From positions 288,115 through 352,114 of the forward strand of contig JBAZNI010000001.1 in assembly GCA_041649295.1 (NCBI GenBank): a stretch of 64,000 nt of DNA. The letters are read 5' to 3'. This document shows positions 2,397-34,658 of this stretch, piece by piece (within the stretch, counting starts at the first letter, position 1; each line of letters opens with the position of its first letter). The position numbers were made by a program, and so were the translations under genes. The notes beneath the pieces were generated by a model. That model was not told the DNA's origin. It saw only the letters and a program-made list of their open reading frames with translations, and made no database searches. The stretch is from Candidatus Pacearchaeota archaeon (lineage in GTDB: Archaea; Nanobdellota; Nanobdellia; Pacearchaeales; GW2011-AR1).

Positions 2397-2398
2397 TT

Positions 2399-17748: not shown

Positions 17749-17780
17749 AAAATTAAAAACCCCTGCCTCTTATTTAGATT

Positions 17781-18200
17781 ATGAAAAAGTGGGCTAGGGT
17801 AATTATATCAAATGTTTTTATATTACTTGGTTTGATATTTGTTATATTGTCTCAGAAAGTTGTTATCGGAGCCGTTATTGGACTTGAAAGATTTCACACA
17901 AATATTCTTGGGTTTATTGGCATTGTTTTTATTGGTGTTGGTGTTGGGATGATGTTTGCGAGGAGAAGAGAGGTAAAAACAAAAGACAGGTTAAAAGAGA
18001 TTATTGATAATCGTTCAGTGTTAAGTTATAATGATTTAAAGAAAATTGTTGAAAAGTTAGATTTTGAATTAAAAGAAGGAAGCAGGCATACAGAAGTTTA
18101 CAAAGGAACTCAAAGAGTTACAAGCATACCAAGACATAAAAGAGATCAATCAACTCATACTTACTGGACAATTGTAAAGGAATTATATGCAGCTGCTTAA
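17781..18200 (+). CDS. Membrane-anchored HicA-like protein
   Basis: Two N-terminal TM helices. The C-terminus LSYNDLKKIVEKLDFELKEGSRHTEVYKGTQRVTSIPRHKRDQS..TIVKEL fits the HicA pattern (GSH..vP.H). Confidence 0.55.
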   Translation: MKKWARVIISNVFILLGLIFVILSQKVVIGAVIGLERFHTNILGFIGIVFIGVGVGMMFARRREVKTKDRLKEIIDNRSVLSYNDLKKIVEKLDFELKEGSRHTEVYKGTQRVTSIPRHKRDQSTHTYWTIVKELYAAA

Positions 18201-18475
18201 AGATTGTTAGTATGCTCTCTAAAAAGTTCAGAATATAGTCTATCATGCTTTTCCAAACCTTGTTCATATCTTCTGCATAAAGCAGGGTATTCTGTTCTTA
18301 TTAAATTAACAAATCTAGAGCAATCAACATTTTCTTTATCATCTACATTAATTCCTATTCCTCTTTCTTTTGCACTAGTTAATGCTTCTCTTACAATAAA
18401 CTTTGCATACCTATGCAAACGATTGTGTAATGTCCAAAATTCATCTATTCTATTGCCTATTTCTATTGGGTTCAT
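18197..18475 (-). CDS. Hypothetical protein P6 (92 aa), last gene of the tyrA-linked operon
   Basis: The ATG at 18475 lies 1 nt after the upstream stop (TAAaATG). No family recognised. Confidence 0.5.
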   Translation of the reverse strand: MNPIEIGNRIDEFWTLHNRLHRYAKFIVREALTSAKERGIGINVDDKENVDCSRFVNLIRTEYPALCRRYEQGLEKHDRLYSELFREHTNNL

Positions 18476-18476
18476 T

Positions 18477-19859: not shown

Positions 19860-19860
19860 T

Positions 19861-21087: not shown

Positions 21088-21088
21088 C

Positions 21089-22156
21089 TTACTTAACACT
21101 CCAGTCATATTGCTTTAAATCTTGAGTTGCGAAAAAGGTTTTGTCGTGCCCGTTTATTGCTACATATCCCCAAAGGAATGCTTCTTGTTCTGCCTGATTT
21201 AAATGGCGAGTTGCTAAAACTCCTGCTTTTGTTTTATATTCAATTAAAACATTGTTTAGTAATTTCTTGTAAAAGTCAACTGTTTCCTGTGTTGGAAGCG
21301 CAAATGGATTTGCTGCTAAAGGAACTATATTTTTATCCTGATTCCATAAAGTATCAGCTAATTCTAAATATGGTGCAACATCATGCGGACAGAATTGAAT
21401 AACTTTTGATTTTTCAGCTCTGTCTCTTCCTCTGTTTGGAAGATACTTGAATCTTAATTCTCTGTTAAATCTTTTTTCTGGGCAAGTGTGGTCACTATCA
21501 ATATTCTGTGCAATAACATATTTCCAATCATTATCTTCAACTGCAACAGATTCTAAACCAACATCCCATCTTGAGTGTTTTGGTGTTCTTGAAGGAACTT
21601 GGAAAACAAATCTCCCGCCTTCTATTGTTGAGATTTTAGAATCATCATAATCTTTTAGTTTTATTTCTACACCTGGAACCTGATGTGCATATCCAAATAT
21701 TTCCGCTCCATCTAAACAGCTTACTAAAGCGATTTTTCTTGGAATCTGATCTACTGCTCCTTCTGGAGGTCTAGTAATATATCCTGATAAAAATGGTATA
21801 TGCCCTGTTTCTTGATATTGGTTATGCAAGCTATCAAATGCTTCTTGCCTTTGTTTAACTGGAAGTATTTTTTGTTTTCTTAACTGCTCAATTGTTTTTG
21901 CTCTCCTTAGTTTTAACTCTGGAGCATGTTTTTTAAATTTAGAAGGGGTTAGATACTCTTCGGGCAGTATTAAACGAGCAACAACTAAATGAGAATCATA
22001 AGGCATATCTGTAATTCGTGAAACAAGCTTATTAGTCGCCCTAATTTCATTACCTAAATCTCGTATTTCTGCTTCTGTTCTTCTCTTAAAAAAGTCCTTT
22101 TTTTCCATATTTTTACGTATAAAATAGCCTTTATAAGCCTTTCTATATGTTGTCAC
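21089..22156 (-). CDS. Hypothetical protein P3 (355 aa)
   Basis: Long ORF with no recognised motif. An alternative start lies at 22108 (MEKKDFF). Confidence 0.5.
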   Translation of the reverse strand: MTTYRKAYKGYFIRKNMEKKDFFKRRTEAEIRDLGNEIRATNKLVSRITDMPYDSHLVVARLILPEEYLTPSKFKKHAPELKLRRAKTIEQLRKQKILPVKQRQEAFDSLHNQYQETGHIPFLSGYITRPPEGAVDQIPRKIALVSCLDGAEIFGYAHQVPGVEIKLKDYDDSKISTIEGGRFVFQVPSRTPKHSRWDVGLESVAVEDNDWKYVIAQNIDSDHTCPEKRFNRELRFKYLPNRGRDRAEKSKVIQFCPHDVAPYLELADTLWNQDKNIVPLAANPFALPTQETVDFYKKLLNNVLIEYKTKAGVLATRHLNQAEQEAFLWGYVAINGHDKTFFATQDLKQYDWSVK

Positions 22157-22601
22157 TAAGAAGTAAGGGCAAAGAAGAAAAATTTAATTCTTCCTGCTCT
22201 CCAGCAAGTCTAGCAGATCTATACAATTCATAAATGGCATCGGGAAAGTAATAACATTTTTCAGGATTAATGCCATTATCCCTTAATTCTTTCTCTATTT
22301 TCTCTAAGTGCATATTAATTATTCTTAAGCCAACTTCACTATCTGATGTTACATAATAATTTCCACTACACTTAAATAATTCCAAATCATATAATCCGCC
22401 ACTTCTTGTCTCTGATTCATCTCTAAATCTTTCAACTAATTCTAAAGTTTCTCTATGGGCTCTTATTTTATCATATACTTCTACAGCAGTTATTTCTGGG
22501 CTAAAATCTCTTTGAATTCTCGGAAGAGTTTCTTCACAAGCTTTTCCCAATTGTTCTGCTCTATCTTGAGTAATTAAAAAGTGTACATAATGTCCATTCA
22601 T
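22143..22601 (-). CDS. Hypothetical protein P2 (152 aa)
   Basis: GGAGG lies upstream of the ATG at 22601, which is 1 nt after the upstream stop (TAAcATG). Confidence 0.5.
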   Translation of the reverse strand: MNGHYVHFLITQDRAEQLGKACEETLPRIQRDFSPEITAVEVYDKIRAHRETLELVERFRDESETRSGGLYDLELFKCSGNYYVTSDSEVGLRIINMHLEKIEKELRDNGINPEKCYYFPDAIYELYRSARLAGEQEELNFSSLPLLLSDNI

Positions 22602-22602
22602 G

Positions 22603-23037
22603 TTATTTCCTCCTCTCTGATAAATCATGTATTGTAGGATATATTCCAGTGGTTTTGTACAAACAGATAATCTCTGGGTGAGGTATAATTCCAAGTAGAT
22701 TGGCAAAGTCTAGTTCAGCAAAATTTTGGACTCTTCCTCTAGTTCCTTCAGGATGATTTAATCTAGACAAATCAATAATCAATCCGCAATCTTTTCTAGA
22801 AAGTATTTCATCTAATTCTGCAAAATGGATATAAGACTTCAAAAGATAATCTGGAAGTCGCGGACATAATCCAAATCTCAATTTTTTGAGATCCTGGTCA
22901 TGCAAATCATCAGTTACAAATTCTACATTTATTGGATCACAACAAAAAAAGTCTTGTTCAGGAGTTTCCCAAATAGACTTTTCAATTATATGTTTCCCAA
23001 TCTCAGTTCTTGTATCGCAATAAACCAGTGTTTTCAT
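22603..23037 (-). CDS. Hypothetical protein P1 (144 aa)
   Basis: Its ATG overlaps the tyrA TGA (ATGA at 23034-23037). Confidence 0.5.
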   Translation of the reverse strand: MKTLVYCDTRTEIGKHIIEKSIWETPEQDFFCCDPINVEFVTDDLHDQDLKKLRFGLCPRLPDYLLKSYIHFAELDEILSRKDCGLIIDLSRLNHPEGTRGRVQNFAELDFANLLGIIPHPEIICLYKTTGIYPTIHDLSERRK

Positions 23038-24032
23038 TTTAACTCCCCCTCGAGATTATTTAATCCATTTATGAATATCTGCCTTGCTTCTTTAGCAAAA
23101 GGATTCATAATCTGCATATTATTAAATAATGCTGGAGTATCATTCGCAATTATTTCTACAATATCCATTAATTTATCAAAAGTTTTTGTGCTTAATTCAA
23201 CTCTCTTTATACCTGCCTTGTTTAGAGCCTGGCCAATAAAATGAGTTAGTGCTTGAGAAAGGGCCATTTGTTTATCATGTTCTTCAGGAGTTGTTATAGT
23301 TGTTTGAAGTCCGATAAATTCGCAAAATTCTTTTATCATATCAAAGGTTTTATTAGTTGCTCTAACATTACAAAGAGCAATTCTCATTCCATTAATTGAG
23401 TCAGGTGCACTTTGCGGTCCAAATAATGGATGAGTTCCAATTATTTCAATATCCTTTGGTAAAATCTGGTTCATTAATTTACAAGAAAACACCTTTAGAG
23501 AACAAACATCCAACACAATAGTCTCATCTTCTATTTTGTCTTTTATTTTTAGTAATATTTGCTCAAGATTTTCCATAGGAACAGCTAAAATAATAAATCT
23601 ACTTGTCAATATCTCATTTAATGAAACAAATTTAACTCCAAGTTCACCTGCTTGTTCACTTTCATTATTAATATCTGTTACAAATAACTCAATATTATCT
23701 AATTTTGAAAGATGTTTTGCAGCAAGCTTTCCAAAATTTCCAAAACCAATTATTCCTATGCTTATGGTCTTTTTTTGAATATCCTTAGACTCCTTAAGAA
23801 TAGTGTTAAAAATGTTCTTTACATTAAAACTATTTCTGGCATTTTTAGTTTTATCCAAAACTTCTTGTTCTCTAGAGCCATCTAAAACAGGCATATTCGT
23901 TTTTGCTTTAATATCTCCGATAGTTCTTACCATCTCAAGCCTTTGGTCAAGAAGACTAACGAGATTTCCATCTATCTCATCAATCTTTTTTCTTAGCATT
24001 CCAATTTCTTGTGGCAGTGTTATTTGTTTCAT
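23034..24032 (-). CDS. tyrA: Chorismate mutase / prephenate dehydrogenase fusion
   Basis: N-terminal CM-II pattern LRKKIDEIDGNLVSLLDQRLEMVRTIGDIK..GSREQEVL, Rossmann IGIIGFGNFGKLAA, and IGTHPLFGP. Confidence 0.75.
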   Translation of the reverse strand: MKQITLPQEIGMLRKKIDEIDGNLVSLLDQRLEMVRTIGDIKAKTNMPVLDGSREQEVLDKTKNARNSFNVKNIFNTILKESKDIQKKTISIGIIGFGNFGKLAAKHLSKLDNIELFVTDINNESEQAGELGVKFVSLNEILTSRFIILAVPMENLEQILLKIKDKIEDETIVLDVCSLKVFSCKLMNQILPKDIEIIGTHPLFGPQSAPDSINGMRIALCNVRATNKTFDMIKEFCEFIGLQTTITTPEEHDKQMALSQALTHFIGQALNKAGIKRVELSTKTFDKLMDIVEIIANDTPALFNNMQIMNPFAKEARQIFINGLNNLEGELK

Positions 24033-24161
24033 AATTAGTGAAAATAAGCCTCCTATATATATTTAGTTGTAGTTTATTCAGATATTAACCGAAAAGTATA
24101 TAAATAGTTGAATATTATACAATTTATTGTAAAAACTGATAGCGAGGGAGGTAAATTTATA

Positions 24162-24201
24162 TATACCAAAAAAGGTATAATGTTATACCAAAAAAGGTAT
24201 A
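24162..24201. promoter_or_regulatory. Two tandem palindromic sites TATACC-A6-GGTATA (period 22) in the tyrA / MNT divergent intergenic region
   Basis: Located at 24162-24179 and 24184-24201, 26 nt upstream of the MNT-family gene start. Confidence 0.5.
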
Positions 24202-24226
24202 ATACAATAAAATAGGCGTAAAGAAA

Positions 24227-24829
24227 ATGTTAACAAAAAATCAAACAGAAATGCTGGACATGTTTAGGAAAAACATATTCTTAAATGAAAGTATAAGAAA
24301 AATAGCTTTAGTTCTAAATAAACCATACCCCAAAGTCTACGAAGCATTAAAAAAATTTGAAAAAGAAAAAATAGTTCAAATTAAAAAAGTTGGAAGCTCA
24401 AATATTTGTAGTTTAATGCTAAATAAAGAGAGTATTGCTATCTTTTCTATGCTTGACAAACAAGAAGCATTTTCAAAAAAAATTCCCAACATAGATAAGA
24501 TACTTTCATTTAATGAATTCCTTGATGACATTTTAATTGTAAGTGGAAGCTATGCAAAAGGATGTCAAACTAAAAAATCAGATATTGATATAGTTATAAT
24601 CACTAAAGAAGATGCCTATAAAAAACAAGAGTTAATGGAGAATATGGCAATGACCTTCCTGCCAGAATTCCATATCACAGCATTTTCCTATAAGAATTTT
24701 ATCAACATGTTGTTAAATAATGAATTTAATCTCGGGAAAGAAACTTTCAGATTCCACCTTATATTTAGAAATCCTGAAAGATATTATGAATTAATTAAGG
24801 AGGCAATTAAAAATGGTTTCAAAGGTTGA
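24227..24829 (+). CDS. wHTH-fused minimal nucleotidyltransferase (MNT-like)
   Basis: VSGSYAKGCQTKKSDIDIVII motif. Overlaps the HEPN gene. Confidence 0.7.
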   Translation: MLTKNQTEMLDMFRKNIFLNESIRKIALVLNKPYPKVYEALKKFEKEKIVQIKKVGSSNICSLMLNKESIAIFSMLDKQEAFSKKIPNIDKILSFNEFLDDILIVSGSYAKGCQTKKSDIDIVIITKEDAYKKQELMENMAMTFLPEFHITAFSYKNFINMLLNNEFNLGKETFRFHLIFRNPERYYELIKEAIKNGFKG

Positions 24830-25292
24830 ATTATACTTAAAAAGAGCAGACGATGAACTTTTGCTATCAAAGGTAAATTTTAATATGTCTGTAAAACCAG
24901 AAATAAAGCAGTTTTTAAGATTAAATTTAAATCAGACATTTTTTAATGATGTTATTTCCGAAGCATACTATTCTATTTTTTATGCAGCAAAGGCATACCT
25001 TTTAACAAAAGGAATAGAAACTTCTGCTCCAGAAGAGCACAAAAAAACATATAACTATTTTAAAAAATTTGTGAACAAAGGAGTTTTAGATAAAGAACTT
25101 CTTGAGATTTATGATACAGAAGCAGACAAAGCAGAATTTTTATTAAAAATATTTTTTAAAGAAAAGAGCAAGAGAGGCAAATTTGTTTACAATATTAACT
25201 CAGATGCAAATATCCCTGTTGCCTTAAACTCTATCGGCAATGCGAAGAAGTTTGTCGCAAATATAAAATCAGTTATTGAAAAAGAAAAATGA
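24813..25292 (+). CDS. HEPN-domain protein
   Basis: 159 aa helical protein following and overlapping the MNT gene. Contains AYYSIFYAAKAYLL..EEHKKT. Confidence 0.6.
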   Translation: MVSKVELYLKRADDELLLSKVNFNMSVKPEIKQFLRLNLNQTFFNDVISEAYYSIFYAAKAYLLTKGIETSAPEEHKKTYNYFKKFVNKGVLDKELLEIYDTEADKAEFLLKIFFKEKSKRGKFVYNINSDANIPVALNSIGNAKKFVANIKSVIEKEK

Positions 25293-25741
25293 AAGACATA
25301 AAACCAAAGTTAATTGAGTTATTTAAGCAAGGCTACTGCACACCGCAGATTTCAGTAATTGCTAAAAAAATTAAAGAGCCTTCTACAACAATACATTATA
25401 ATATAAAAAGATTAGAGCAAGAAGGAGCGATAAAATCTTACAAAGCTGTTTTTAATTATAAAAAAATAAATGAGGGGCATTGCACTTATATTTTTGTCAA
25501 TTTATCTCCAGAAAATTATGGAAATCCAGAAAAAATAGCAAAAGAAATAGCTAAAGATTCAAGAATTGAAAGTGTGGATGTAGTTACAGGGGGCTATGAG
25601 TTAATAATCAAGTTAAGGACTAAGGATGTAGATGAATATTATGAGGCAATAAAAAATATGGTATCGAAATTTAAATTCACAAAAACAACTTCAGTTACTT
25701 CTTTAAAACAAATTAAAAGCGAGTTTGTTGAGTTAGAATAA
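25289..25741 (+). CDS. Lrp/AsnC-family transcriptional regulator
   Basis: HTH IAKKIKEPSTTIHYNIKRLEQEGAIKSY followed by a RAM-like C-terminal half. Confidence 0.7.
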   Translation: MKDIKPKLIELFKQGYCTPQISVIAKKIKEPSTTIHYNIKRLEQEGAIKSYKAVFNYKKINEGHCTYIFVNLSPENYGNPEKIAKEIAKDSRIESVDVVTGGYELIIKLRTKDVDEYYEAIKNMVSKFKFTKTTSVTSLKQIKSEFVELE

Positions 25742-25908: not shown

Positions 25909-28900
25909 TTAACTGCCCTCTTCCAGCTTCAAACTCACAATCTTGCTAATACCGCTGTTCATGCTGATTCCATAAATAACATTAGCCCCGCTAATAATGC
26001 TGTCGTTGTGGCTTATTACAATATACTGCCCGGATTTCATGTATTTGTGAAGAAGATTAGCTAAAAGTTCTGAGTTTCTTTTATCAAGTGCTGCATCAAT
26101 TTCATCAAGAATATAGAAACAGTAAGGATGATATTCCTGAATTGCAAAAATCAATGAAAGTGCAATAAGTGTTTTTTCTCCGCCTGATAAAGAATTAATG
26201 TCAAAGTATTTTCCTTTTGCAATTCTTATTATAATATCTATTCCCCCTTCAAAAATATCTTCAGGATTCTGGATTTCAAGGAATGCTTTTCCTTTTGTGC
26301 TTAACTGGCTGAAATTCCTCGTGAATAGCTCATTAATTGCAGTAAATGTTTTCATAAAAGTCTTTTTCTTTTTAACATCAATTTCATGTATGATTTTAAG
26401 TATCTCTTCTCTTTCATCTTCCAGCTGTTTGACTTTTTCAGACACCTTCTCATATTCTTCTTTTACAAATTCGTATGTTTCCAAAGCTCTCATGTTTACA
26501 CTGCCTATTCTCATTAAGTCCTGCTCTGATTTCTGAAGTTTTTCTTTAAGAAACTGAATACTTCCAGAAATAAATTCAATTCCTGAAAATTCCCTTAACT
26601 CAAATTCGAAAGATTCTTTTTCAGCACCGACTTTTGCAATTTCAACTTTAAGATTATTTATAACTTCTGTAAATCTCGAAAGAGTGTTTTGCTGGTTTAC
26701 AAGCAACAGATTTTTCTGATTTATTTTTTCCTGTATTTCTGTTCTTTCCTTAAACAGCTTTTCAAATTTTTCAATCATATCATCCAAAGCAGACTGCCTG
26801 TCTCCTAATTTATGCTCGTTTAGTTTCAGATTAGAGTTTAAATTTGACAAATCTTTTTTTATCTCTATTTTGTCTTTGTCGATTCCCTTTATAACAATTC
26901 TTATCCTTTCAATTTCCTGCTCTTTGAACAAAATAGTCCTGTCAATATTTTCATCTGTTCTTGATGATATTTCCTGCAGTTCAAACAGAAGTGTTTTTGA
27001 TTTCTCCTCTATCTTTGAAATATCTTGAAGATTCTTTGCAAGTGATTCCTGTCTTGTTTTTAAGTTTTGGATTTCTATTTTAAAATTCTTTTCTTTAGCC
27101 ATAAGTTTTTTCATAGATTCTCTTTTTTCATTAATAGATTCTATTTTAACAAGCTCAACTTCTCTTTCTGACAATTCGTTTTTTAGGGAATCATCTTTGC
27201 TACCAAGATTTTTTATATTAATTTCAAAATCTTCAATTTCTTTTTTAACTGAATTTAACAGCTCCAAACTTTTTTTGATTTTGTCTTCTGTCGATTTTAA
27301 AACATGAGTTACATGCTCGCTTGTTAATTTGCTCTGGCATAGAGGGCAGATATCAGAAGAAGGTATTTTTGATTTTAGTTTCTGATTTCTTTCTATATCT
27401 GCTTCAATTACAGAAAAAGATTTCTCAGCATTTTTTCTTTCTTCATATAATTTTTCAAGTTGTTTTTTATTTTCTCCAATATCTTTATTTAGCTCTTTTA
27501 TTTTTGCTGTGCATTCTTCTGTTGTCTGGAAAGTAAGTTCTTCTGCCAAAGATTTTATCTGGTTAAAAAGATATCTTGATTCTGTTTCAGCAGAAGTTAA
27601 TTCTCTTTCCTTATCTCTTATCCTGTCTTTAATGAGATTAAATTCTGTCTGCAGAGAATAAACTTTTTCTTTTTTAGATTCAATTTCATCAAGTTCCTGC
27701 TTTTTAGCTTTGATTTCATTCTGTCTTTTAGAAAGTAATGGAGATTCTTTTTTTAATCTATTAAGTTCTTCTTCAGATTCTTTTAAGCTGTGCTCTAATT
27801 CATTTCTTCTAACTTCATTTTCAGCTAGTTTTTTGTCAAAGTTATCTATTCTTGTTCTGTCTTCTGTAACCCTTATATTCAGCATTGTAATTTCATCATT
27901 CAAAGACTCTCTTTCAAAACCTGAAGATTTCTGAACATGCTCATTTATTTCATCTGCTCTTTGTGAAAGAGATTTAATTTCCTGCTCCAATCTTGATATT
28001 TCTGATTTTACTTTTTCCTTGAATTTGGTGTTTTTATCAACTTCTTCTTTTATTTTTTCAATTTCTTTATCTTTTTCATCAAGGTTCTTTTTTATTATTG
28101 ATACTTTGCACTGCTTGACACTTTTTTCAAGTTCTTTAAACCTCAAAGCCTGCTTCCTTTCTTCTTCAAGATTTTTCATATATGCTGTTCTCTCTCTTAA
28201 AACTGCAGAAACTTCTTTTAGTTTTTGGTTTGTTTTTTCAATTTCATGGAGAGATTTCTGTTTTCTCATTTCGTAAATTGAAATTCCTGCAACTTCTTCA
28301 ATAATCTCTCTTCTTTCAATAGGGTGCATTTTAACAAGATGGGCAATTTCTCCCTGAAGAACAATATTAAATCCATTTGGGTCAATTCCTGCATGAGATA
28401 AAAGTTCTAAAATTTCCTGGCGTGTTTTTGTCTCGCCATTTAGCTTGTAAATGCTCGTTCCTTTTCTCCTTACAATTCTTTTAATAGAAACGTCTTTTGA
28501 ATCGATGTTAAACATTTTGTCAGAATTATCAAAAACAATTTCAACACTTGCCTCTTTAGACGGTTTTCTTTCTTTTGTTCCCTGAAAAATAAGATGTGAT
28601 GATTTTTCAGCTCTCAAACTTTTGCTTGACAAACGCCCTAAAACAAAACACAAAGCATCGCTTATATTTGAATTATGCGCGAATATATTATTAGCTACAA
28701 AATTATGATGTTCTTCAACGCACAAATCATAAACCCATTCCCCCCCAGCTATTTCTTGAATATCTATAAGTTCATCCCAAAAGATGTCTGATTGAATTAG
28801 CAGATTTAACCTATTTATATTTTCAGAATTTCCTATAAATAATTGATTAGTCAATAAAGAAAGTCCATTTCTTGAAGGAGTGCATTGATTATAATAATAT

Positions 28901-30381
28901 GAATCTAAACTTGGAAAATCCTGTTTATTTTTCTTAACTGAGATGCCTAACTCGTTTGTGATTATTTTTACTAAATCATTTGCTTCGATTAAATCAACAT
29001 TAGTATTAGATTTTTTATGCAAGTGGGATAATATCCTGTCTTTTTTTCTTTTATGGATTAATTGAATATATTGATTAAATAATGCTAAATTTAAAACTCC
29101 TGAGATAGTTATTGATTTATATTTGCCTTTAAAGTCTTTATATCCTTTTATAATGTCTTTAGTATTAAAAAGAATGCCTAACCTTAGCAAGCAAGTTTCA
29201 ATACTATGACAAAGCAGTTCACTCTTTGTTGTTATTTCAATTACTGGAGATTTTTTTGAGACATATCCATCTCCACAATATAGTCCATTTAATAAGTTTG
29301 ATATTTCTTCCTTAGAAGAGTGTTTTAAAATAATGTTTGAAATCTTTTTATTTTCTGTTTTTGAAGCCATCCCTAATTCCCTTAAAATCTTTTTTAATGG
29401 CTCTGAAAAAATTATTACATCCCAGCAATTTTGTTTATACTCCCGGACTAATGGTTCTTTATGGAAAAGTTTTCTTACAAGATAAACATAATCTTCTACA
29501 ATTTCTCTATCTCCATTTGTAAACCAGATATGGCTTGAATCTCCAAGCCTTCCTTCTGCCAAAAGATATCCAAAAAATCTGGCAAAGTCTGGAGAATTTT
29601 TAAATTCAAATCTTGTATCCTTGCCATTAGCACAAATAGTATTTATATTATTGACTATTTCTATATCTGAAAAACCTGCATACCTAAATATTTTTATAAG
29701 GTTGCAGAAGTGAATTGATTGTTTATCAAGCATCCCTTTAATAATATAATAATTAACTCCTATTTTCTGCGCTAATTCCCTCCAGCTATTTTTTTCTTTT
29801 AATGATTTTAAAATATTAACATATTCTTCTTTATAAGGAATATAAAAATTATCTTCAAGACTAAATTTATCAAGAAGTTCTATAAAATATTTATTTTCAG
29901 GCTCAAAGTTTATTTTTCTCGTAACAGCTATTCTAACCCCTTTTTTTAATTCTTCTGCTTTTGCAGGAACAATTTTATTATTTTTTAATATAAAGAAAGG
30001 ATGATATTTAGTAGATGTAATTTCTCTGCCCGAACGAGTTTTTATTTTTAGCAGTTTTTCTGGAGAAGTTCTCTTTACAAATGCTTTAATGGGTTTTTTT
30101 ACAACTTTTAAAGTATTAAAATCAAGGCATAATACTTCTGTGCCATCGCCTTGAATTAAAAATCCATCTTCAGTTTTTATAGCATTGATTAAACGAGAAT
30201 TAACAATATTTCCAATCTTTTCTATTGTTCCGTCTGATAGCTGGACTAGTGAATTTTCAGTCAGGCACTTACCACTTCCATTTGGGCCAATAATGACATT
30301 AATTCCTGTATCAAATGGGAGCTGTGCTTTTCCTGCAAAACTCTTAAACCCATTTATTGTCAGCTCTTTTACATAACCCAT
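25909..30381 (-). CDS. SMC-headed coiled-coil ATPase with central CxxC hook, interrupted by an intein
   Basis: Head motifs are INGFKSF, GPNGSGK[intein]SNISDALCFVLG, QGEIAHLV..ERREIIEEVAGIS, LSGGEKTLIALSLIFAIQ and ILDEIDAALD. CPLC lies at 27337-27348, the extein midpoint. Confidence 0.85.
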   Translation of the reverse strand: MGYVKELTINGFKSFAGKAQLPFDTGINVIIGPNGSGKCLTENSLVQLSDGTIEKIGNIVNSRLINAIKTEDGFLIQGDGTEVLCLDFNTLKVVKKPIKAFVKRTSPEKLLKIKTRSGREITSTKYHPFFILKNNKIVPAKAEELKKGVRIAVTRKINFEPENKYFIELLDKFSLEDNFYIPYKEEYVNILKSLKEKNSWRELAQKIGVNYYIIKGMLDKQSIHFCNLIKIFRYAGFSDIEIVNNINTICANGKDTRFEFKNSPDFARFFGYLLAEGRLGDSSHIWFTNGDREIVEDYVYLVRKLFHKEPLVREYKQNCWDVIIFSEPLKKILRELGMASKTENKKISNIILKHSSKEEISNLLNGLYCGDGYVSKKSPVIEITTKSELLCHSIETCLLRLGILFNTKDIIKGYKDFKGKYKSITISGVLNLALFNQYIQLIHKRKKDRILSHLHKKSNTNVDLIEANDLVKIITNELGISVKKNKQDFPSLDSYYYNQCTPSRNGLSLLTNQLFIGNSENINRLNLLIQSDIFWDELIDIQEIAGGEWVYDLCVEEHHNFVANNIFAHNSNISDALCFVLGRLSSKSLRAEKSSHLIFQGTKERKPSKEASVEIVFDNSDKMFNIDSKDVSIKRIVRRKGTSIYKLNGETKTRQEILELLSHAGIDPNGFNIVLQGEIAHLVKMHPIERREIIEEVAGISIYEMRKQKSLHEIEKTNQKLKEVSAVLRERTAYMKNLEEERKQALRFKELEKSVKQCKVSIIKKNLDEKDKEIEKIKEEVDKNTKFKEKVKSEISRLEQEIKSLSQRADEINEHVQKSSGFERESLNDEITMLNIRVTEDRTRIDNFDKKLAENEVRRNELEHSLKESEEELNRLKKESPLLSKRQNEIKAKKQELDEIESKKEKVYSLQTEFNLIKDRIRDKERELTSAETESRYLFNQIKSLAEELTFQTTEECTAKIKELNKDIGENKKQLEKLYEERKNAEKSFSVIEADIERNQKLKSKIPSSDICPLCQSKLTSEHVTHVLKSTEDKIKKSLELLNSVKKEIEDFEINIKNLGSKDDSLKNELSEREVELVKIESINEKRESMKKLMAKEKNFKIEIQNLKTRQESLAKNLQDISKIEEKSKTLLFELQEISSRTDENIDRTILFKEQEIERIRIVIKGIDKDKIEIKKDLSNLNSNLKLNEHKLGDRQSALDDMIEKFEKLFKERTEIQEKINQKNLLLVNQQNTLSRFTEVINNLKVEIAKVGAEKESFEFELREFSGIEFISGSIQFLKEKLQKSEQDLMRIGSVNMRALETYEFVKEEYEKVSEKVKQLEDEREEILKIIHEIDVKKKKTFMKTFTAINELFTRNFSQLSTKGKAFLEIQNPEDIFEGGIDIIIRIAKGKYFDINSLSGGEKTLIALSLIFAIQEYHPYCFYILDEIDAALDKRNSELLANLLHKYMKSGQYIVISHNDSIISGANVIYGISMNSGISKIVSLKLEEGS
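28672..30267 (-). mobile_element. 532-aa intein with LAGLIDADG homing-endonuclease domain in the Walker A loop
   Basis: Starts at Cys39 (GSGK|CLTENSLV) and ends ..NIFAHN|S. The LAGLIDADG-like blocks are FFGYLLAEGRL and LLNGLYCGDGYV. Confidence 0.85.
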
Positions 30382-30417: not shown

Positions 30418-30657
30418 ATGATAAAAGGCAAGGTTTTTAAGTTAATAACTTTATGGTTTATAATGCTAAGAATAAGTTATAACTATCCTAATATGATTAT
30501 CCTCATTGTTTACTCTAGCGAGCTAGCTGTCAGAAAAGCAGAAGAGAGAGCTAATGTAGAGCCCTGCGACAGCAAAGTAGAGCCAGTAAGAGCAATATAT
30601 CCAGATACTGCAGGATTAGATTATAGAGTTGGAAGATATTTGGATGTTAAGGCATAA
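30418..30657 (+). CDS. Doubtful small ORF in the SMC/Lrp intergenic region
   Basis: The distal half is locally GC-richer (..AEERANVEPCDSKVEPVRAIYPDTAGLDYRVGRYLDVKA). No RBS or family was recognised. Confidence 0.2.
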   Translation: MIKGKVFKLITLWFIMLRISYNYPNMIILIVYSSELAVRKAEERANVEPCDSKVEPVRAIYPDTAGLDYRVGRYLDVKA

Positions 30658-31609
30658 ACAAGAATTTGTGTTCTTTAAACCAGAGAAGATGATGATATTT
30701 TTTAATTGATTTTCCGAAAAGATTTCTAATATCATTTAATATTTTCCTAAATTCTTCATAACTTTCAACTTCCATTTCAAATTCTAAATCATTATCGCTT
30801 ATTGTTTCATAGGCATAAATAATATTTGGATGCCGGTGAAAATAGTCCAGCATTTTTTCCTTAATAGTTAAATCCTCGAGTTGTATTTCAATTTTATACC
30901 AGTAATAACCAATTTTTTCTAAATCCAAAATAACTCTAAAATCTTTGATAATTCCTTTTTCAATCATCTTTTTTATCCGATAAGTTACATTAGTTATGCT
31001 AATTTTAGTTTTTTTAGAAATATCAACCGAACTCATTCTGGCATTTGCACTAATAAGTCTTAAGATTTCCAAGTCTATTGAATCAAAATCTGATTTTTCA
31101 GGAAAAAACATAACTTTAACTTCTGGCAGAATTTTTGATTTTTTATCATTTAAATAATCTCTTTTGTAAATATAAAACTTGCAATAAATAGACATATCTA
31201 ATTCAAAGATATAATCTCCAAATCGCTTCATTAAATCTTCTCTTAATTCATAAAATTCATATATATTTTTAACCCAGCAAGCGAGCCCTAAATCTCTGAA
31301 TCCATCTATACTATCGACCCACCAAAATTTTGGGTGTTTTTTGTAATACCCTATGATTTTATTTTCCTGCTCTGGTGTGTCTTTTTGAAGTTTAATAAAA
31401 AATCTGCAGTTAATATATCCTAATTTAGTTACATCAATCATTGTTTGATAACCTTTAATCACACTATTTTTCTCAAGTTGTTTTGTTCTGTACTGAACAA
31501 CTTCCCTGCTAAGTCCGACTTTTTTTGCAATTTGCTTAAAACTCTGTCTGCTGTCTAAATCTAACTGATACAAGATAGCTCTGTCTTTCTTGTCTAGTTT
31601 ATATACCAT
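30647..31609 (-). CDS. Tandem (double) Lrp/AsnC-type regulator
   Basis: Two HTH_AsnC modules: DRAILYQL..FKQIAKKVGLSREVVQYRTKQLEKNSVI and DLEILRLIS..DISKKTKISITNVTYRIKKMIEKGII. Confidence 0.75.
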   Translation of the reverse strand: MVYKLDKKDRAILYQLDLDSRQSFKQIAKKVGLSREVVQYRTKQLEKNSVIKGYQTMIDVTKLGYINCRFFIKLQKDTPEQENKIIGYYKKHPKFWWVDSIDGFRDLGLACWVKNIYEFYELREDLMKRFGDYIFELDMSIYCKFYIYKRDYLNDKKSKILPEVKVMFFPEKSDFDSIDLEILRLISANARMSSVDISKKTKISITNVTYRIKKMIEKGIIKDFRVILDLEKIGYYWYKIEIQLEDLTIKEKMLDYFHRHPNIIYAYETISDNDLEFEMEVESYEEFRKILNDIRNLFGKSIKKYHHLLWFKEHKFLFMP

Positions 31610-31703: not shown

Positions 31704-32840
31704 ATGGTAAAACCAAAACTAATTGAGGTTCTAGTTAAAACCCCAGAAAAAGGGCTCTCATTTAGCGCTAGCCATTTAATTCCAAAAATTCCATTACCAA
31801 AAAAACCGATACCCCAACTAAGATGGTATACTAATGATATTGACTCATTTACTGAACACAACAAAAGATGGGTAAATAGTGAGGAAGAAAAACCCATATT
31901 CAAAATGGTATATTTTGATCTTGAAACAAGATGCAATCAAAACTGCCGGGGATGTTTTACAGGAATTGGAACAACAAACCCTCTAGAATCAAATCAACCA
32001 GTAACAGATTACAAAAGACTCGCCAAGACTATAGATTTCTTAAAAAGCCATGGAGGAGAATCGATAGTCTATGCGGGCAAGGGGGAACTCTGGACAAAAC
32101 CAAAAGAAGCAAGAGAATTCATAGAATATACAACAGACAGAGGTTTAGGTATGATGATATTTACAAATGGGACTCTTTTAGAGGAAGCAGATATTCGGTG
32201 GCTAAAAGAAAAAGATGTTTCTTTAACTATTTCATTAAGGGGGACAAATGAAAGAGCTCACAATGAATTAGTAAGGGGAAGGGGATTTAGAAAAAGTATT
32301 CGTGCGATAAAATACGCCTTAAAATATGGTTTTCAAGATGAAAATCGGCTAGCAGTTGAAATACCTGCAATTAATTCAAATTACCAAGAAGTTTTAAATG
32401 ATTTTTTGCCTGCAATGAGATATTTAGGCATAGTGCCTTTTGCAGAGCAGTTTATTCTCACACATTGCCCAGAACAAGACAAAAAACTCTCGTTAAATTT
32501 CAAACAAGCAAGAAAGTTTTTTGAAGAAGCTGCGAGAATTGACAGGTTATTTGGATACGAATATGAACCAGTTAATCAGCAAAGAATGACTGCTCAAGAA
32601 CCGTGCCGAAGACCAACATATTCGTTTGTTGTTAGAACTAATGGTGATGTTGAAGATTGTCCTGGAACTTTTTATTGTCATGGCAATATAGATATACAAA
32701 CATTAAAAGAAATATTTGAATCTCAAACATTCAAAGGATTTCTAAATCATTATTCTGGCTGCCCTTGTTCAACTTGTTATACTAAAACTGATAAGGATTT
32801 ACCAAAAGATTTACCTTTTGGGCTGGAGGATTTAAAATGA
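31704..32840 (+). CDS. Radical SAM enzyme with C-terminal Cys-rich (SPASM/twitch-like) region, paralog 1
   Basis: CNQNCRGC (CxxxCxxC), the GKGELW glycine motif, and C-terminal CRRP..CPG..C..CPCSTC. Confidence 0.75.
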   Translation: MVKPKLIEVLVKTPEKGLSFSASHLIPKIPLPKKPIPQLRWYTNDIDSFTEHNKRWVNSEEEKPIFKMVYFDLETRCNQNCRGCFTGIGTTNPLESNQPVTDYKRLAKTIDFLKSHGGESIVYAGKGELWTKPKEAREFIEYTTDRGLGMMIFTNGTLLEEADIRWLKEKDVSLTISLRGTNERAHNELVRGRGFRKSIRAIKYALKYGFQDENRLAVEIPAINSNYQEVLNDFLPAMRYLGIVPFAEQFILTHCPEQDKKLSLNFKQARKFFEEAARIDRLFGYEYEPVNQQRMTAQEPCRRPTYSFVVRTNGDVEDCPGTFYCHGNIDIQTLKEIFESQTFKGFLNHYSGCPCSTCYTKTDKDLPKDLPFGLEDLK

Positions 32841-33976
32841 AAATAATTCCCGAAGTTGCAAGGAAATTTGGAGGAAAATTTCCAGCAGATTATCAGAACA
32901 AACTTCCTTATTGGGGATTTTTCTCAAAAGAAGAAATGGGGTCTAATGAAGGAAGGCTCTTAATGATGGATATAGATTTTGGGAGATATTGTTCTCTTGA
33001 TTGTCCAACTTGCTTTAGAAAAAGCAATGTAGTGGATAAAGGTTTTGAAGGGGATTTAAAATACGATGAACTTCTAAGGGTTATTGATGATGCAAGAAAA
33101 CTTGGATTACAAAGTGTTAAAACTTGTGGAGCAGGAGAACCAACACAAGATATAAGATTCTTGCAGTTTATTAAAGACATGAGTAAAAGAGACCTAGGAA
33201 CAGCGATTTTTACAAAGGGACAAGTTTTAGGTGATGATAAAGAAGCAAAAAGGTTTAATAGAAATTATGGAATAACTTCTGCTCAACAATTATGTGATGA
33301 GTTAGCAAAGTATAAAGTTAGTTTTATGTTAAGTTTCCAATCATTTGATACAGAGATACAAGATAAATTAGTTGGAAAAGAGGGGTATAGTCTTGTTAGA
33401 AATAAAGCATTGGACAATTTAGTAGAAGCAGATTTTAATGGAAGTAATCCTACAAGATTGGCTTTAGTTAATGCTCCTATAACCCAAACAAACTATAATG
33501 AAGCATTTGAGATTTATGTTTATGCAAGAGAAAGAAATCTATATCCTGTTTTTGCTTTATCAATGGTTAGTGGAAAACAATTTGATGGAGGATTTTTACG
33601 AAGTGTTGATATTAGTTATGAACAAAAACTAGACTTATATGTAAACATTTATTCTTGGAATATTGAACATGGAGTTCAAACATTAAGACAGATTCAAGAG
33701 GAGGGAGTTTCTGCAATGCCTGGAGTTCATCCTTGTAATCAAATAGCTTGCGGGCTTTATTTAACTGCTAATGGGAATGTTGTCGGATGTCCTGGGTTTA
33801 CTAATGTAGAAGGGAATGTGCGAGAAGAAAGTATAAAAAATATCTGGGAAAAAAGTCAAAATAGAAAATTAAGAGCAGAAGTTTTTAATTGTAAATGTCC
33901 TCCGAAAGATGGGATCACTATCCCTCATAACATTTATGAGAAAGTTCTAAAGAGGCTAACAGAAAAATATAGGTAA
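32837..33976 (+). CDS. Radical SAM enzyme with C-terminal Cys-rich (SPASM/twitch-like) region, paralog 2
   Basis: CSLDCPTC, GAGEPT, and C-terminal HPCNQIACG..GCPG..CKCPP. An ATGA overlap joins it to paralog 1. Confidence 0.75.
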   Translation: MKIIPEVARKFGGKFPADYQNKLPYWGFFSKEEMGSNEGRLLMMDIDFGRYCSLDCPTCFRKSNVVDKGFEGDLKYDELLRVIDDARKLGLQSVKTCGAGEPTQDIRFLQFIKDMSKRDLGTAIFTKGQVLGDDKEAKRFNRNYGITSAQQLCDELAKYKVSFMLSFQSFDTEIQDKLVGKEGYSLVRNKALDNLVEADFNGSNPTRLALVNAPITQTNYNEAFEIYVYARERNLYPVFALSMVSGKQFDGGFLRSVDISYEQKLDLYVNIYSWNIEHGVQTLRQIQEEGVSAMPGVHPCNQIACGLYLTANGNVVGCPGFTNVEGNVREESIKNIWEKSQNRKLRAEVFNCKCPPKDGITIPHNIYEKVLKRLTEKYR

Positions 33977-33980: not shown

Positions 33981-34658
33981 TCAGAACAGCTTTTTCTGAG
34001 CGCCGTGCAACTTGTATTTTTTTATTGTGTCCCAGGATTCTCTAAATATGCCTTTGTCCTTGAATTTATCATAGTTGTCGTAAATGAATTTTCTCGTAAC
34101 TGGGTCGCTTGAATATCCAGAACCAAAATTAATTCCTATTTGTTTTTTTATTTTTTCTATTTCTGCATCTCGTGTTGTTTTTGCAACTATACTTGCAGCA
34201 GAGACAACAACATGATTTACATCAGCCTTGTGTTCGCAAACAAGCTCAATATTCCCGCGGGCCATTAAAAATTTCTCAACATAATCTTTCCAAGCAGGAA
34301 TATTAACAGAAGGGCAGTCAATTATCACCCCAATTTTTTCTTTTTTATCTTTTAATCTTTTAGCTATTTGATTAATTATTTGTGCAGACGCAACTGCTTC
34401 CCTTTGATTAAGATTTAACCTGTCTCCAGATTTATTGTCAATTTCATCAACAGAGATTTTTACACAGAAACTATCAATTACCCTTTCTTTTATTATTTTA
34501 GCAAGTTCTTCTCTTTTTTTAGGAAGAAGTGTTTTTGAATCTCTTATCCCAAGTTTTACAAATTGCTTTTCTGTTTCTTTATCAATTAAAACACCTGCCA
34601 AAACCATTGGGCCGATAACTGGCCCTCTGCCAGCATCATCAATTCCAAGGATTAACAT
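33981..34658 (-). CDS. rnhB: Ribonuclease HII
   Basis: LGIDDAGRGPVIGPMV at the N-terminus, DSK, and a SAASIVAK-type motif. Confidence 0.9.
   Translation of the reverse strand: MLILGIDDAGRGPVIGPMVLAGVLIDKETEKQFVKLGIRDSKTLLPKKREELAKIIKERVIDSFCVKISVDEIDNKSGDRLNLNQREAVASAQIINQIAKRLKDKKEKIGVIIDCPSVNIPAWKDYVEKFLMARGNIELVCEHKADVNHVVVSAASIVAKTTRDAEIEKIKKQIGINFGSGYSSDPVTRKFIYDNYDKFKDKGIFRESWDTIKKYKLHGAQKKLF

What the first reader, a model, noticed from the sequence alone, without database searches (positions are those of the whole stretch)
25909..30381. SMC-type ATPase head combined with a Rad50-style CxxC hook at the coiled-coil apex and no visible hinge
After removing the intein, the extein is 958 aa.
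- The head motifs are SMC-like, not Rad50-like: INGFKSF, GPNGSGKSN, QGEIAHLV..ERREIIEEVAGIS, LSGGEKTLIALSLIFAIQ and ILDEIDAALD.
- At extein residue about 480 of 958, the exact midpoint (nt 27337-27348), the heptad-rich region carries SSDICPLCQSKL. This has the position and form of the Rad50 zinc hook.
- I cannot see a hinge domain of about 150 aa with glycine-rich motifs.
- The length is Rad50-like rather than SMC-like (roughly 1150-1200 aa).
- No mre11, scpA or scpB gene is adjacent.

If this is the only SMC-class protein of the organism, chromosome-condensin function may here be dimerised through a zinc hook.
Basis: partly seen in the sequence, partly recalled or inferred. Interest (0 to 1): 0.7.

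Follow-up and report, generated by a model that had tools for sequence, protein, structure and literature searches.

The report
Natural SMC with zinc hook, no hinge
This archaeal chromosome-organising SMC protein has lost its usual hinge domain and carries a Rad50-type zinc hook at the tip of its arms instead, a swap conserved across the Pacearchaeota that matches a chimera previously built only in the laboratory.

Summary
ORF 25909..30381 (-) encodes a 1490-aa precursor. Removing a 532-aa LAGLIDADG intein from the P-loop leaves a 958-aa extein with CPLC at residues 480-483.

- **Head and arms are canonical SMC.** TIGR02169 scores 550 bits against about 100 bits for Rad50 models. The Pyrococcus Smc head matches at 3.5e-106.
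- **No hinge is detectable**, by Pfam, by a local hinge HMM, or in the AlphaFold2 model.
- **The apex is a genuine archaeal zinc hook.** The motif is CPxCQxKxTxEHxxHV. The family profile hits the P. furiosus Rad50 hook at 2.7e-8, and the best structural match of the apex model is 1L8D.
- **The motif and arm lengths are fixed.** CPxC is invariant across more than 180 homologues (36-63% identical). Its spacing to Walker A (448 aa) and to the signature motif (387 aa) is identical in 104 of 105.
- **The gene sits at the SMC locus.** It shares the RNase HII–SMC position with a hinge-bearing Woesearchaeota SMC, so it is the SMC orthologue with its hinge replaced.
- **A Pacearchaeota subgroup has neither hinge nor hook.**

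Not resolved: zinc-mediated dimerisation, the kleisin partner, and whether the genome also holds Rad50/Mre11 or a second SMC. I found no description of this in the searchable literature. It is a new natural variant of a known kind.

The parts
25909..30381 (-). Whole ORF: 1490-aa precursor of a hook-type SMC (958-aa extein plus 532-aa intein). The stop codon is 25909-25911.
   Evidence: The sequence is identical to database protein P0001, from a MAG labelled Candidatus Pacearchaeota.
30268..30381 (-). N-extein, aa 1-38. This is the start of the SMC head and ends in the Walker A stretch GPNGSGK.
   Evidence: Pfam SMC_N.
28672..30267 (-). Class-1 intein (532 aa) with a LAGLIDADG homing-endonuclease domain, inserted in the P-loop. 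Its junctions are Cys1, then His-Asn, then Ser+1.
   Evidence: Pfam Intein_splicing 3.1e-27 and LAGLIDADG_3 2.6e-14. The spliced junction GPNGSGKSNISDALCFVLG equals the consensus of intein-free homologues.
28276..28671 (-). Remainder of the N-terminal half of the head (extein 39-170), including the Q-loop QGE at nt 28348-28356.
27358..28275 (-). N-terminal coiled-coil arm (extein 171-476, 306 aa). Predicted helix breaks lie at 208-216, 346-351 and 415-421.
   Evidence: AlphaFold2 secondary structure. The arm aligns to the N-arm of canonical SMC: TIGR02169 positions 1-468 and P0144 residues 1-437.
27301..27348 (-). Zinc-hook motif CPLCQSKLTSEHVTHV (extein 480-495). CPLC itself is nt 27337-27348. 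The non-helical apex loop is extein 477-488 (nt 27322-27357).
   Evidence: - C480, P481 and C483 are invariant; H491 is at least 90% conserved.
- The family apex profile hits the Rad50 hook structures 6zff (2.7e-8) and 1l8d (5.3e-8).
- 38 of 40 members hit Pfam Rad50_zn_hook.
- The best PDB match of the apex model is 1l8d.
26416..27321 (-). C-terminal coiled-coil arm (extein 489-790, 302 aa). Helix breaks at 587-588, 608-613, 732-742 and 759-770 roughly mirror those of the N-arm.
   Evidence: Aligns to the C-arm of the hinge-type SMC P0144.
25912..26415 (-). C-terminal half of the head (extein 791-958). It carries the signature LSGGEK (nt 26173-26190), Walker B/D-loop YILDEIDAALD (nt 26083-26115) and H-loop ISHND (nt 26002-26016).
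33981..34658 (-). RNase HII gene upstream of the SMC gene. It is not a functional part of the SMC. It serves as a synteny marker showing this is the orthologous SMC locus.
   Evidence: Pfam RNase_HII. The same neighbour is found in 43 of 72 hook-type loci, next to the hinge-type Woesearchaeota SMC, and next to the hook-less Pacearchaeota SMC.

Best explanation
This gene is the Pacearchaeota orthologue of the canonical prokaryotic SMC (condensin-type) ATPase. In it, the central hinge dimerisation domain has been replaced by an archaeal zinc-hook module of the Rad50/ASRP type.

**Shown**
- After intein splicing, the protein has an SMC ATPase head.
- It has two SMC-type arms of about 305 residues each, predicted as long helices.
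- The arms meet at a 12-residue loop carrying an invariant CPxC.
- There is no hinge.
- The apex is homologous to known zinc hooks.
- The architecture is fixed across the clade, with essentially no indels in about 600 residues of arm.
- The gene lies at the locus where the sister lineage carries a hinge-type SMC.

**Inferred, by homology with Rad50 and with the working laboratory chimera Smc(Zh)**
- Two protomers share one Zn2+ through their four cysteines. This gives a constitutive apex dimer that takes over the hinge's only indispensable role.
- The heads then engage and disengage with ATP, probably bridged by a kleisin that I did not find.
- The complex would thereby organise or segregate the chromosome as Smc-ScpAB does.
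- Hinge-specific activities would be dispensable in this lineage.
For: **Head and arms are SMC**
- Pfam SMC_N scores 6e-61.
- TIGR02169 scores 550 bits and TIGR02168 537 bits, against 133 for ASRP and at most 109 for Rad50.
- The PDB sequence search gives Pyrococcus Smc at 3.5e-106 and Rad50 at 5.7e-17.
- Foldseek top hits are condensin Smc4 and Pyrococcus Smc heads, with target-normalised TM-scores up to 0.91-0.92.
- The closest hinge-type relative, P0144, aligns over the head and both arms at 38% identity, leaving out its central roughly 230 residues.

**No hinge**.

**The hook is real and homologous**
- The residues are invariant.
- The profile hits Rad50 hook structures, Pfam Rad50_zn_hook in 38 of 40 members with a best E-value of 9e-8, and the midpoints of the NCBIfam Rad50, ASRP and arcadin-4 models in 23-38 of 40 members.
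- The apex AlphaFold2 model has pLDDT 96.6. Its best PDB match is 1l8d, with TM 0.76/0.85 and rmsd 2.2 A.

**Arm length is fixed**
- Walker A to CPxC is 448 aa, and CPxC to SGGE is 387 aa, in 104 of 105 homologues.
- CPLC is at position 480 in 36 of 36 complete metagenome ORFs.

**Orthology**
- RNase HII–SMC synteny is shared with the hinge-type Woesearchaeota SMC.
- In a neighbour-joining tree of the heads, the hook-type sequences plus their hook-less derivatives form one clan with 97/100 bootstrap support.

**Functional plausibility**
- B. subtilis Smc with the P. furiosus Rad50 hook in place of the hinge supports normal growth and keeps the arm-length constraint (PMC5344682).
- The reverse swap works in yeast Rad50 (PMC6969161).
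Against: - There is no direct evidence for zinc binding or for dimerisation. Only monomer models could be made.
- The conserved residues C480, C483, H491 and H494 could in principle form an intramolecular C2H2-like site.
- No kleisin (ScpA) or ScpB was found. The window has none. About 880 kb of flanks around 72 hook-type genes has none. Two database searches returned only ScpAs of other archaeal groups.
- Whether the same genome also carries Rad50/Mre11 or a second SMC is unknown.
- The protein scores below the NCBIfam SMC cut-offs because the hinge is missing.
- The tree is a simple distance tree without Rad50 or ASRP outgroups.
Confidence: 0.8

Rival explanations
1. It is a Rad50 orthologue: a double-strand-break repair ATPase working with Mre11, whose head merely looks SMC-like.
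For: - The overall architecture and length (958 aa, head-arm-CxxC-arm-head) are those of Rad50.
- The NCBIfam archaeal Rad50 models align end to end: 4-949 against 3-875 of 878.
- The hook matches Rad50 hooks.
Against: - Rad50 models score at most 109 bits against cut-offs of 700-1087, while SMC models score 537-550 bits.
- Solved structures match at 1e-106 for Smc against 1e-17 for Rad50.
- The Walker B/D-loop is the SMC form DEIDAALD.
- The arms align with SMC arms.
- No Mre11-like gene lies beside any of 72 loci.
- The locus is syntenic with a hinge-type SMC.
Confidence: 0.03
2. It is a member of the archaea-specific SMC-related proteins (ASRP: ClsN/coalescin, Sph1/2). These are hook-bearing SMC-superfamily proteins, and the gene would then be distinct from the true SMC.
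For: - ASRPs have a zinc hook and no hinge (PMC9389158).
- The apex matches the midpoint of the ASRP model in 37 of 40 family members, with a best E-value of 4.5e-9.
- The whole protein hits ASRP at 1.4e-38.
Against: - The ASRP score of 133 bits is far below its cut-off of 300 and far below the SMC scores.
- The ASRP match to the whole protein covers only head residues 19-324.
- The arms are SMC-length and align with SMC arms.
- The closest relatives outside the family are hinge-type SMCs.
- The gene is the positional orthologue of a hinge-type SMC.
Confidence: 0.05
3. The CPxC...H..H motif is an intramolecular metal site or a simple structural cap of the helical hairpin, not an intermolecular hook. 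The protein would then dimerise only through its heads, arms or kleisin, or act without apex dimerisation.
For: - C480, C483, H491 (100% conserved in the close family) and H494 (78%) have a C-x2-C-x7-H-x2-H spacing that could supply four ligands within one chain.
- A Pacearchaeota subgroup nested in the family has lost the motif altogether, and about 75 residues of each arm with it. The gene is nevertheless kept at the same locus. The apex link may therefore not be essential.
Against: - P. furiosus Rad50 carries the same CPxC-x7-H pattern (alignment). There, to my knowledge of structure 1L8D, the zinc is held by four cysteines from two chains.
- H494 is not invariant.
- The predicted apex superimposes on the Rad50 hook.
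Confidence: 0.1

Closest known systems
Canonical prokaryotic SMC (Smc-ScpAB condensin; TIGR02169/TIGR02168), e.g. Pyrococcus Smc
   Same: - The ATPase head matches in all motifs, at 3.5e-106 to the Pyrococcus Smc head.
- The arms are about 300 residues each, with paired helix interruptions.
- The genomic position matches that of the hinge-type Woesearchaeota SMC.
   Different: - The hinge (Pfam PF06470) of roughly 170-230 residues is absent. A hook segment of about 12-35 residues takes its place.
- The score falls below the NCBIfam full-length cut-offs.
- No ScpA or ScpB has been found so far.
Engineered B. subtilis Smc(Zh): Smc with the P. furiosus Rad50 zinc hook in place of the hinge (Burmann et al. 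2017, PMC5344682)
   Same: - The design is the same: SMC head and arms with a zinc hook at the apex.
- The laboratory chimera supports normal growth and still shows strict arm-length constraints. The natural family shows practically invariant arm lengths.
   Different: - This one arose naturally and is fixed in a whole archaeal clade. It is archaeal rather than bacterial.
- Its function and partners are untested.
Rad50 (with Mre11), archaeal type
   Same: - A CPxC-x7-H zinc-hook motif sits at the exact midpoint.
- There is no hinge.
- The overall length is about 900-960 aa.
   Different: - The head and arms are SMC, not Rad50.
- There is no mre11 neighbour.
- The locus is the SMC locus.
ASRP family (ClsN/coalescin of Sulfolobus, Sph1/Sph2 of haloarchaea; PMC9389158) and arcadin-4
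   Same: They are archaeal SMC-superfamily proteins that organise DNA or the cell and carry a zinc hook instead of a hinge. Their apex sequences are mutually recognisable with this one.
   Different: - They form a separate family with divergent heads. The ASRP model scores 133 bits here against 550 for SMC.
- Judging from the NCBIfam model lengths (593 positions for ASRP against 1165 for SMC), they are shorter.
'Hinge-less' SMC of marine Actinobacteria (PMC12153180, 2025)
   Same: It is a natural SMC-clade protein that has lost the hinge.
   Different: - That group has no CxxC hook and is bacterial.
- The Pacearchaeota family replaced the hinge with a hook. Only a derived subgroup (about 780-804 aa) resembles the actinobacterial state.

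Membership tests
Canonical SMC (TIGR02169/TIGR02168, Pfam SMC_N + SMC_hinge) | ABC-type head split between the N- and C-termini, with Walker A, Q-loop, signature LSGGEK, Walker B/D-loop DEIDAALD and H-loop | tested here: met
   The motifs were read directly. SMC_N scores 6e-61. The Pyrococcus Smc head matches at 3.5e-106.
Canonical SMC (TIGR02169/TIGR02168, Pfam SMC_N + SMC_hinge) | Head closer to SMC than to any other SMC-superfamily branch | tested here: met
   The scores are 550 and 537 bits for SMC, 133 for ASRP, at most 109 for Rad50, 45 for RecN and 37 for arcadin-4. The Foldseek ranking agrees.
Canonical SMC (TIGR02169/TIGR02168, Pfam SMC_N + SMC_hinge) | Two antiparallel coiled-coil arms of about 300 residues each | tested here: met
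   AlphaFold2 predicts helices over 171-476 and 489-790 with paired breaks. The arms align to SMC arms.
Canonical SMC (TIGR02169/TIGR02168, Pfam SMC_N + SMC_hinge) | Central globular hinge dimerisation domain (PF06470) | tested here: not met
   There is no Pfam hit at E<=1. A local hinge HMM gives no hit at E<=10, while hinge-type relatives score 34-335 bits. The model has no globular region.
Canonical SMC (TIGR02169/TIGR02168, Pfam SMC_N + SMC_hinge) | Whole-protein score above the curated NCBIfam cut-off | tested here: not met
   The scores are 550.3 against 729.4 and 537.5 against 567.35. The shortfall corresponds to the missing hinge.
Canonical SMC (TIGR02169/TIGR02168, Pfam SMC_N + SMC_hinge) | Kleisin partner ScpA (with or without ScpB) encoded in the genome | tested here: inconclusive
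   None was found in the window, in 880 kb of flanks, or among the listed ScpA database hits. Whole genomes could not be searched.
Canonical SMC (TIGR02169/TIGR02168, Pfam SMC_N + SMC_hinge) | Orthologous genomic position | tested here: met
   RNase HII lies upstream of the gene in hook-type loci, in the hinge-type Woesearchaeota locus and in the hook-less locus.
Rad50 | CxxC zinc hook at the coiled-coil apex | tested here: met
Rad50 | Rad50-type ATPase head (NCBIfam Rad50 equivalog cut-offs) | tested here: not met
   The best score is 108.7 bits against cut-offs of 700-1087.
Rad50 | Operonic or genomic association with mre11 | tested here: not met
   No metallophosphoesterase or Mre11-like neighbour appears in the window or in 72 loci. 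Genome-wide presence was not testable.
ASRP (NF045487) | Score above the curated cut-off of 300 bits | tested here: not met
   132.9 bits, covering the head only.
ASRP (NF045487) | Zinc-hook motif in place of a hinge | tested here: met
   The apex matches ASRP model positions 249-358 of 593 in 37 of 40 members.
Zinc hook as a functional module | One Zn2+ coordinated by four cysteines from two protomers, giving a dimer | not testable with these tools
   Only monomer predictions were available. The claim is inferred from homology.
Class 1 intein with LAGLIDADG endonuclease | Cys at position 1, terminal His-Asn, a nucleophile at +1, a Hint fold and an endonuclease insert | tested here: met
   The spliced junction restores the family consensus.

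The most novel reading that the evidence does not exclude
Pacearchaeota as a clade run their chromosomal SMC with a zinc hook acquired from a Rad50/ASRP-type protein in place of the hinge. A nested subgroup has gone further and dispensed with any recognisable apex dimerisation module. One orthologous locus thus shows three states: hinge (Woesearchaeota), hook (most Pacearchaeota) and neither (some Pacearchaeota). This would be a natural demonstration that the hinge fold, and perhaps apex dimerisation itself, is dispensable for SMC function while arm length is not. The system may also work without a conventional ScpA kleisin.
Probability: 0.45. Interest if true: 0.75.

Novelty: new variant of a known kind. 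Interest (0 to 1): 0.62.

Why it matters
The role of the SMC hinge is a long-standing question. Proposals include a dimerisation point, a DNA-binding site and a DNA gate.

Laboratory work showed that a Rad50 hook can stand in for the hinge in B. subtilis. This family shows that evolution made the same swap and kept it throughout a widespread archaeal clade, while freezing arm length to the residue.

The family offers a ready-made comparative series of hinge, hook and no apex module at one orthologous locus. That series can be used to test which SMC properties depend on the apex. It also gives a concrete case of module exchange between the SMC and Rad50/ASRP branches of the superfamily.

On the practical side, these proteins are currently annotated simply as 'chromosome segregation SMC family protein'. 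The intein-containing window protein is annotated as 'LAGLIDADG family homing endonuclease'. Both labels hide the feature.

Tried and rejected
1. **Species-genome scan with the full-length family alignment.** It returned mostly bacterial hinge-type SMCs and no hook-type locus.
2. **Metagenome scan with the 40-sequence apex alignment.** A narrower 8-sequence alignment worked.
3. **Hunt for the kleisin.**
   - tblastn with an archaeal ScpA against all held DNA found ScpA only next to hinge-type SMCs of other archaea.
   - A 120-sequence ScpA HMM found nothing in 880 kb around hook-type genes.
   - Two database searches with ScpA profiles returned Hadarchaea, Thermococci, Asgard and Micrarchaeota. 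None of the hits lay on a contig whose length matched the long contigs carrying hook-type SMCs.
   - This is inconclusive, not evidence of absence.
4. **Conserved neighbours.** They are RNase HII, an NPCBM-like membrane protein, adenylosuccinate synthetase, an AP endonuclease and Toprim, and some could not be assigned. None resembles a kleisin, a kite protein or Mre11.
5. **DPANN comparative-genomics papers and their supplements.** They held nothing on SMC, ScpA or Rad50 in Pacearchaeota.
6. **Rad50 orthologue and ASRP member readings.** Both were considered and rejected on scores and synteny (see the rival explanations).

Full report
**What is in the sequence**

The finding's coordinates correspond to one ORF, 25909..30381 on the minus strand, encoding 1490 aa. 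A 532-aa insert (aa 39-570, nt 28672..30267) begins with Cys, ends with His-Asn and is followed by Ser. It matches Pfam Intein_splicing (3.1e-27) and LAGLIDADG_3. It sits inside the Walker A loop, GPNGSGK|S. Removing it gives a 958-aa protein whose junction, GPNGSGKSNISDALCFVLG, equals the consensus of intein-free homologues. The only CxxC in the extein is CPLC at residues 480-483 (nt 27337..27348), almost exactly at the midpoint. The only correction is that the 12-residue string quoted spans nt 27325..27360, and the coordinates given are those of CPLC alone.

**Head and arms are SMC**

- Pfam finds SMC_N (6e-61) and no SMC_hinge, even at E<=1.
- The NCBIfam SMC equivalogs score 550 and 537 bits. 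They align residues 3-474 to model positions 1-468 of 1165, which is the head plus the whole N-arm.
- Other superfamily models score much lower: ASRP 133 bits, the best Rad50 model 109, RecN 45.
- The SMC scores fall below the curated cut-offs (729 and 567), as expected if the hinge is missing.
- Among solved structures, the best sequence match is the Pyrococcus Smc head at 3.5e-106. The best Rad50 match is 5.7e-17.
- An AlphaFold2 model built from a 63-sequence family alignment has mean pLDDT 80.8. It shows the two head halves and two long helical arms (171-476 and 489-790).
- The arms carry paired interruptions near 208-216/759-770 and 346-351/608-613. These are in the kind of places where SMC arms have their joint and elbow. 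That last comparison rests on my knowledge of SMC structures and was not tested.
- Foldseek ranks condensin Smc4, Pyrococcus Smc head constructs and other SMC heads first.

**No hinge**

Besides the Pfam result, I built a hinge HMM from the central 260 residues of 54 related hinge-type SMCs. It scores 34-335 bits on hinge-bearing relatives. It gives no hit at E<=10 on this protein or on any of the other 23 hook-type representatives that have both head halves. In the model, the segment between the arms is a 12-residue loop (477-488) with no globular domain. A pairwise alignment with the closest hinge-type relative (P0144, 1142 aa, 38% identity) covers the head and both arms and leaves out P0144's central roughly 230 residues. 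The arms here (306 and 302 residues) are therefore about SMC length. The protein is short because the hinge is gone, not because it has Rad50-like arms.

**The apex is a genuine zinc hook**

- In the 120 closest database proteins, CP[LIV]C is present in 119.
- In a 63-sequence alignment down to 36% identity, C480, P481 and C483 are invariant and H491 is at least 90% conserved.
- The conserved motif is CPxCQxKxTxEHxxHV.
- A profile of 116 residues around the apex (40 sequences) finds, as its two best hits in the whole PDB, the P. furiosus Rad50 zinc hook: 6zff at 2.7e-8 and 1l8d at 5.3e-8. The alignment pairs CPLCqsklTeeH with CPVCgreLTdeH. The human Rad50 hook comes third.
- Scanned individually, 38 of 40 apex fragments hit Pfam Rad50_zn_hook, with a best E-value of 9e-8.
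- Against NCBIfam, the fragments match the midpoints of archaeal Rad50 models (up to 38 of 40, best 4e-10), of ASRP (37 of 40, best 4.5e-9) and of arcadin-4 (23 of 40).
- The hook therefore belongs to the archaeal zinc-hook class shared by these families, and the donor cannot be named.
- An AlphaFold2 model of the apex is very confident (pLDDT 96.6). Its best PDB match is 1l8d, with TM 0.76/0.85 and rmsd 2.2 A over about 100 residues. The Foldseek E-value is weak (0.015), as expected for a helical hairpin.

**How widespread and how constrained**

- The protein is identical to a database entry from a MAG labelled Candidatus Pacearchaeota. There it is named only 'LAGLIDADG family homing endonuclease'.
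- More than 120 clusters at 90% identity are 47-63% identical to it and 946-1082 aa long when intein-free. Where named, they come from Pacearchaeota or 'Nanoarchaeota' and are called 'chromosome segregation SMC family protein'.
- A profile-free search of 1.84 billion representatives shows the hook type occupying the top ranks, down to about 37% identity. Hinge-type SMCs follow.
- A metagenome scan with the pattern [KSD][IST]D[ILV]CPLCQ returned 69 loci encoding a confirmed relative. In 67 of them my ORF call recovered a hook-bearing SMC ORF of more than 300 aa.
- The arm lengths are practically invariant. Walker A to CPxC is 448 residues and CPxC to SGGE is 387 residues in 104 of 105 homologues. 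CPLC is at position 480 in 36 of 36 complete metagenome ORFs.
- This means roughly 600 residues of coiled coil have almost no indels at 47-63% identity. It recalls the strict, periodic arm-length constraint found experimentally in B. subtilis Smc, which persisted when the hinge was replaced by a Rad50 hook (PMC5344682).

**Orthology and history**

- The gene has no scpA, scpB, mre11 or second SMC-like neighbour.
- Its recurrent neighbours are RNase HII upstream (43 of 72 loci), a roughly 400-aa NPCBM-like membrane protein downstream (37 of 72), and then an AP endonuclease and a Toprim protein.
- In this window, extra genes separate the SMC gene from these usual neighbours. Two radical-SAM/SPASM genes and an AsnC-type regulator lie on one side. 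HEPN/nucleotidyltransferase and AbiEii-type genes lie on the other.
- The closest hinge-type relative, P0144, is labelled Candidatus Woesearchaeota and carries PF06470. It has the same RNase HII–SMC arrangement.
- In a neighbour-joining tree of the concatenated head halves (118 sequences, 336 columns), the hook-type sequences fall in one clan with four proteins of about 780-804 aa that have neither hook nor hinge. That clan has 97/100 bootstrap support, and three of the four nest inside the hook type.
- One of these hook-less proteins (PIU75690.1, Pacearchaeota) lies at the same syntenic locus.
- The simplest history has three steps. A canonical SMC was present in the common ancestor with Woesearchaeota. 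A zinc hook replaced the hinge on the Pacearchaeota stem. In one subgroup, the hook and about 75 residues of each arm were later lost.

**How it most likely works**

*Shown:* an SMC head, SMC arms, a homologous zinc-hook apex, no hinge, strong purifying selection, and the orthologous locus.

*Inferred:*
- Two protomers share one Zn2+ through four cysteines, as in Rad50. This forms the constitutive apex dimer that the hinge normally provides.
- ATP-driven head engagement and DNA organisation proceed as in Smc-ScpAB.
- The inference is made plausible by the engineered B. subtilis Smc(Zh), which supports normal growth, and by the reverse swap in yeast Rad50.
- The neck helix next to the head is highly conserved. 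Y171, E172, K175 and E181 are invariant, and R174, K177, K184, T185, L189, K190 and E191 are at least 90% conserved. This would fit a retained kleisin-binding site, but it is only an inference.

*Unresolved:* the kleisin, ScpB, the presence of Rad50/Mre11 or a second SMC elsewhere in the genome, and zinc stoichiometry. An intramolecular Cys2His2 site is a minor rival.

**Comparison with what is known**

It is not Rad50: the head scores, the arms, the neighbours and the locus all disagree. It is not an ASRP: 133 bits against a cut-off of 300, and the head and arms are SMC.

It fails one defining feature of canonical SMC, the hinge. It should therefore be described as an SMC orthologue with a replaced dimerisation module, and not as a standard member.

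The nearest precedents are these:
- the laboratory chimera Smc(Zh);
- the hook-bearing ASRP/ClsN family (PMC9389158);
- the 'hinge-less' SMCs of marine Actinobacteria, which lack a CxxC (PMC12153180).

Full-text searches combining SMC, zinc hook, hinge, DPANN and the lineage names found no description of a natural SMC with a zinc hook. That library is incomplete, so prior description elsewhere cannot be excluded.

**Verdict**

This is a new natural variant of a known kind of machine. It is of real interest to the SMC field as a clade-wide natural counterpart of an engineered protein. Its interest is tempered by two facts: the swap was already known to be tolerated, and hook-bearing SMC-like proteins already exist in archaea.

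Noticed in passing
L157:6279-8693 (P0503 = PIU75690.1); also P0137, P0140, P0141, P0150: A Pacearchaeota subgroup has SMC proteins of about 780-804 aa with neither hinge nor CxxC hook, and arms about 75 residues shorter each. The gene lies at the same RNase HII–SMC locus and nests within the hook-type clade in a neighbour-joining tree of the heads. How these proteins dimerise at the apex, if they do at all, is unknown.
   Followed up: partly
window 28672-30267 (-); also L093, L113, L115, L124, L127, L137, L148: A LAGLIDADG intein sits in the SMC P-loop (GPNGSGK|C...HN|S). Hook-type SMC ORFs about 500 aa too long recur in about 8 of 70 loci. Several hinge-type relatives (1660-1805 aa) also carry large insertions. 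This makes it look like a recurrent homing site. The insert made NCBI name the whole protein a homing endonuclease.
   Followed up: partly
P0219, P0224, P0226, P0228, P0233, P0247, P0250, P0258, P0260; L028, L051 (Saccharibacteria), L005 (Hadarchaeum), L050 (Actinomycetota): Many 'mini-SMCs' of about 750-870 aa exist. Some keep a hinge but have arms of only about 120 residues. Short SMCs also appear in CPR bacteria, in Hadarchaea and in an Actinomycetota MAG. The last may correspond to the published hinge-less marine group.
   Followed up: no
window 14241-25741: Genes typical of defence or mobile islands lie between the SMC gene and its usual downstream neighbours. They include nucleotidyltransferase + HEPN (24227-25292), AbiEii (16153-16944), a 2',5' RNA ligase-like gene, and a run of large ORFs with no Pfam match (18477-22156: 460, 415 and 355 aa). 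They look like an insertion relative to the synteny seen in L084 and L085.
   Followed up: no
window 31704-33976 (+): Two adjacent paralogous radical SAM/SPASM genes (378 and 379 aa) are wedged between the AsnC-type double-HTH regulator (30647-31609) and RNase HII. They are absent from the corresponding position in L084 and L085.
   Followed up: no
window 1029-3337: A restriction-modification pair (RE_BsaWI-like endonuclease and N6_N4 methyltransferase) lies next to a DDE (IS240-type) transposase.
   Followed up: no
window 57584-58615 (-): A DisA-type diadenylate cyclase (DAC + DisA-linker domains) is encoded in this small archaeal genome.
   Followed up: no
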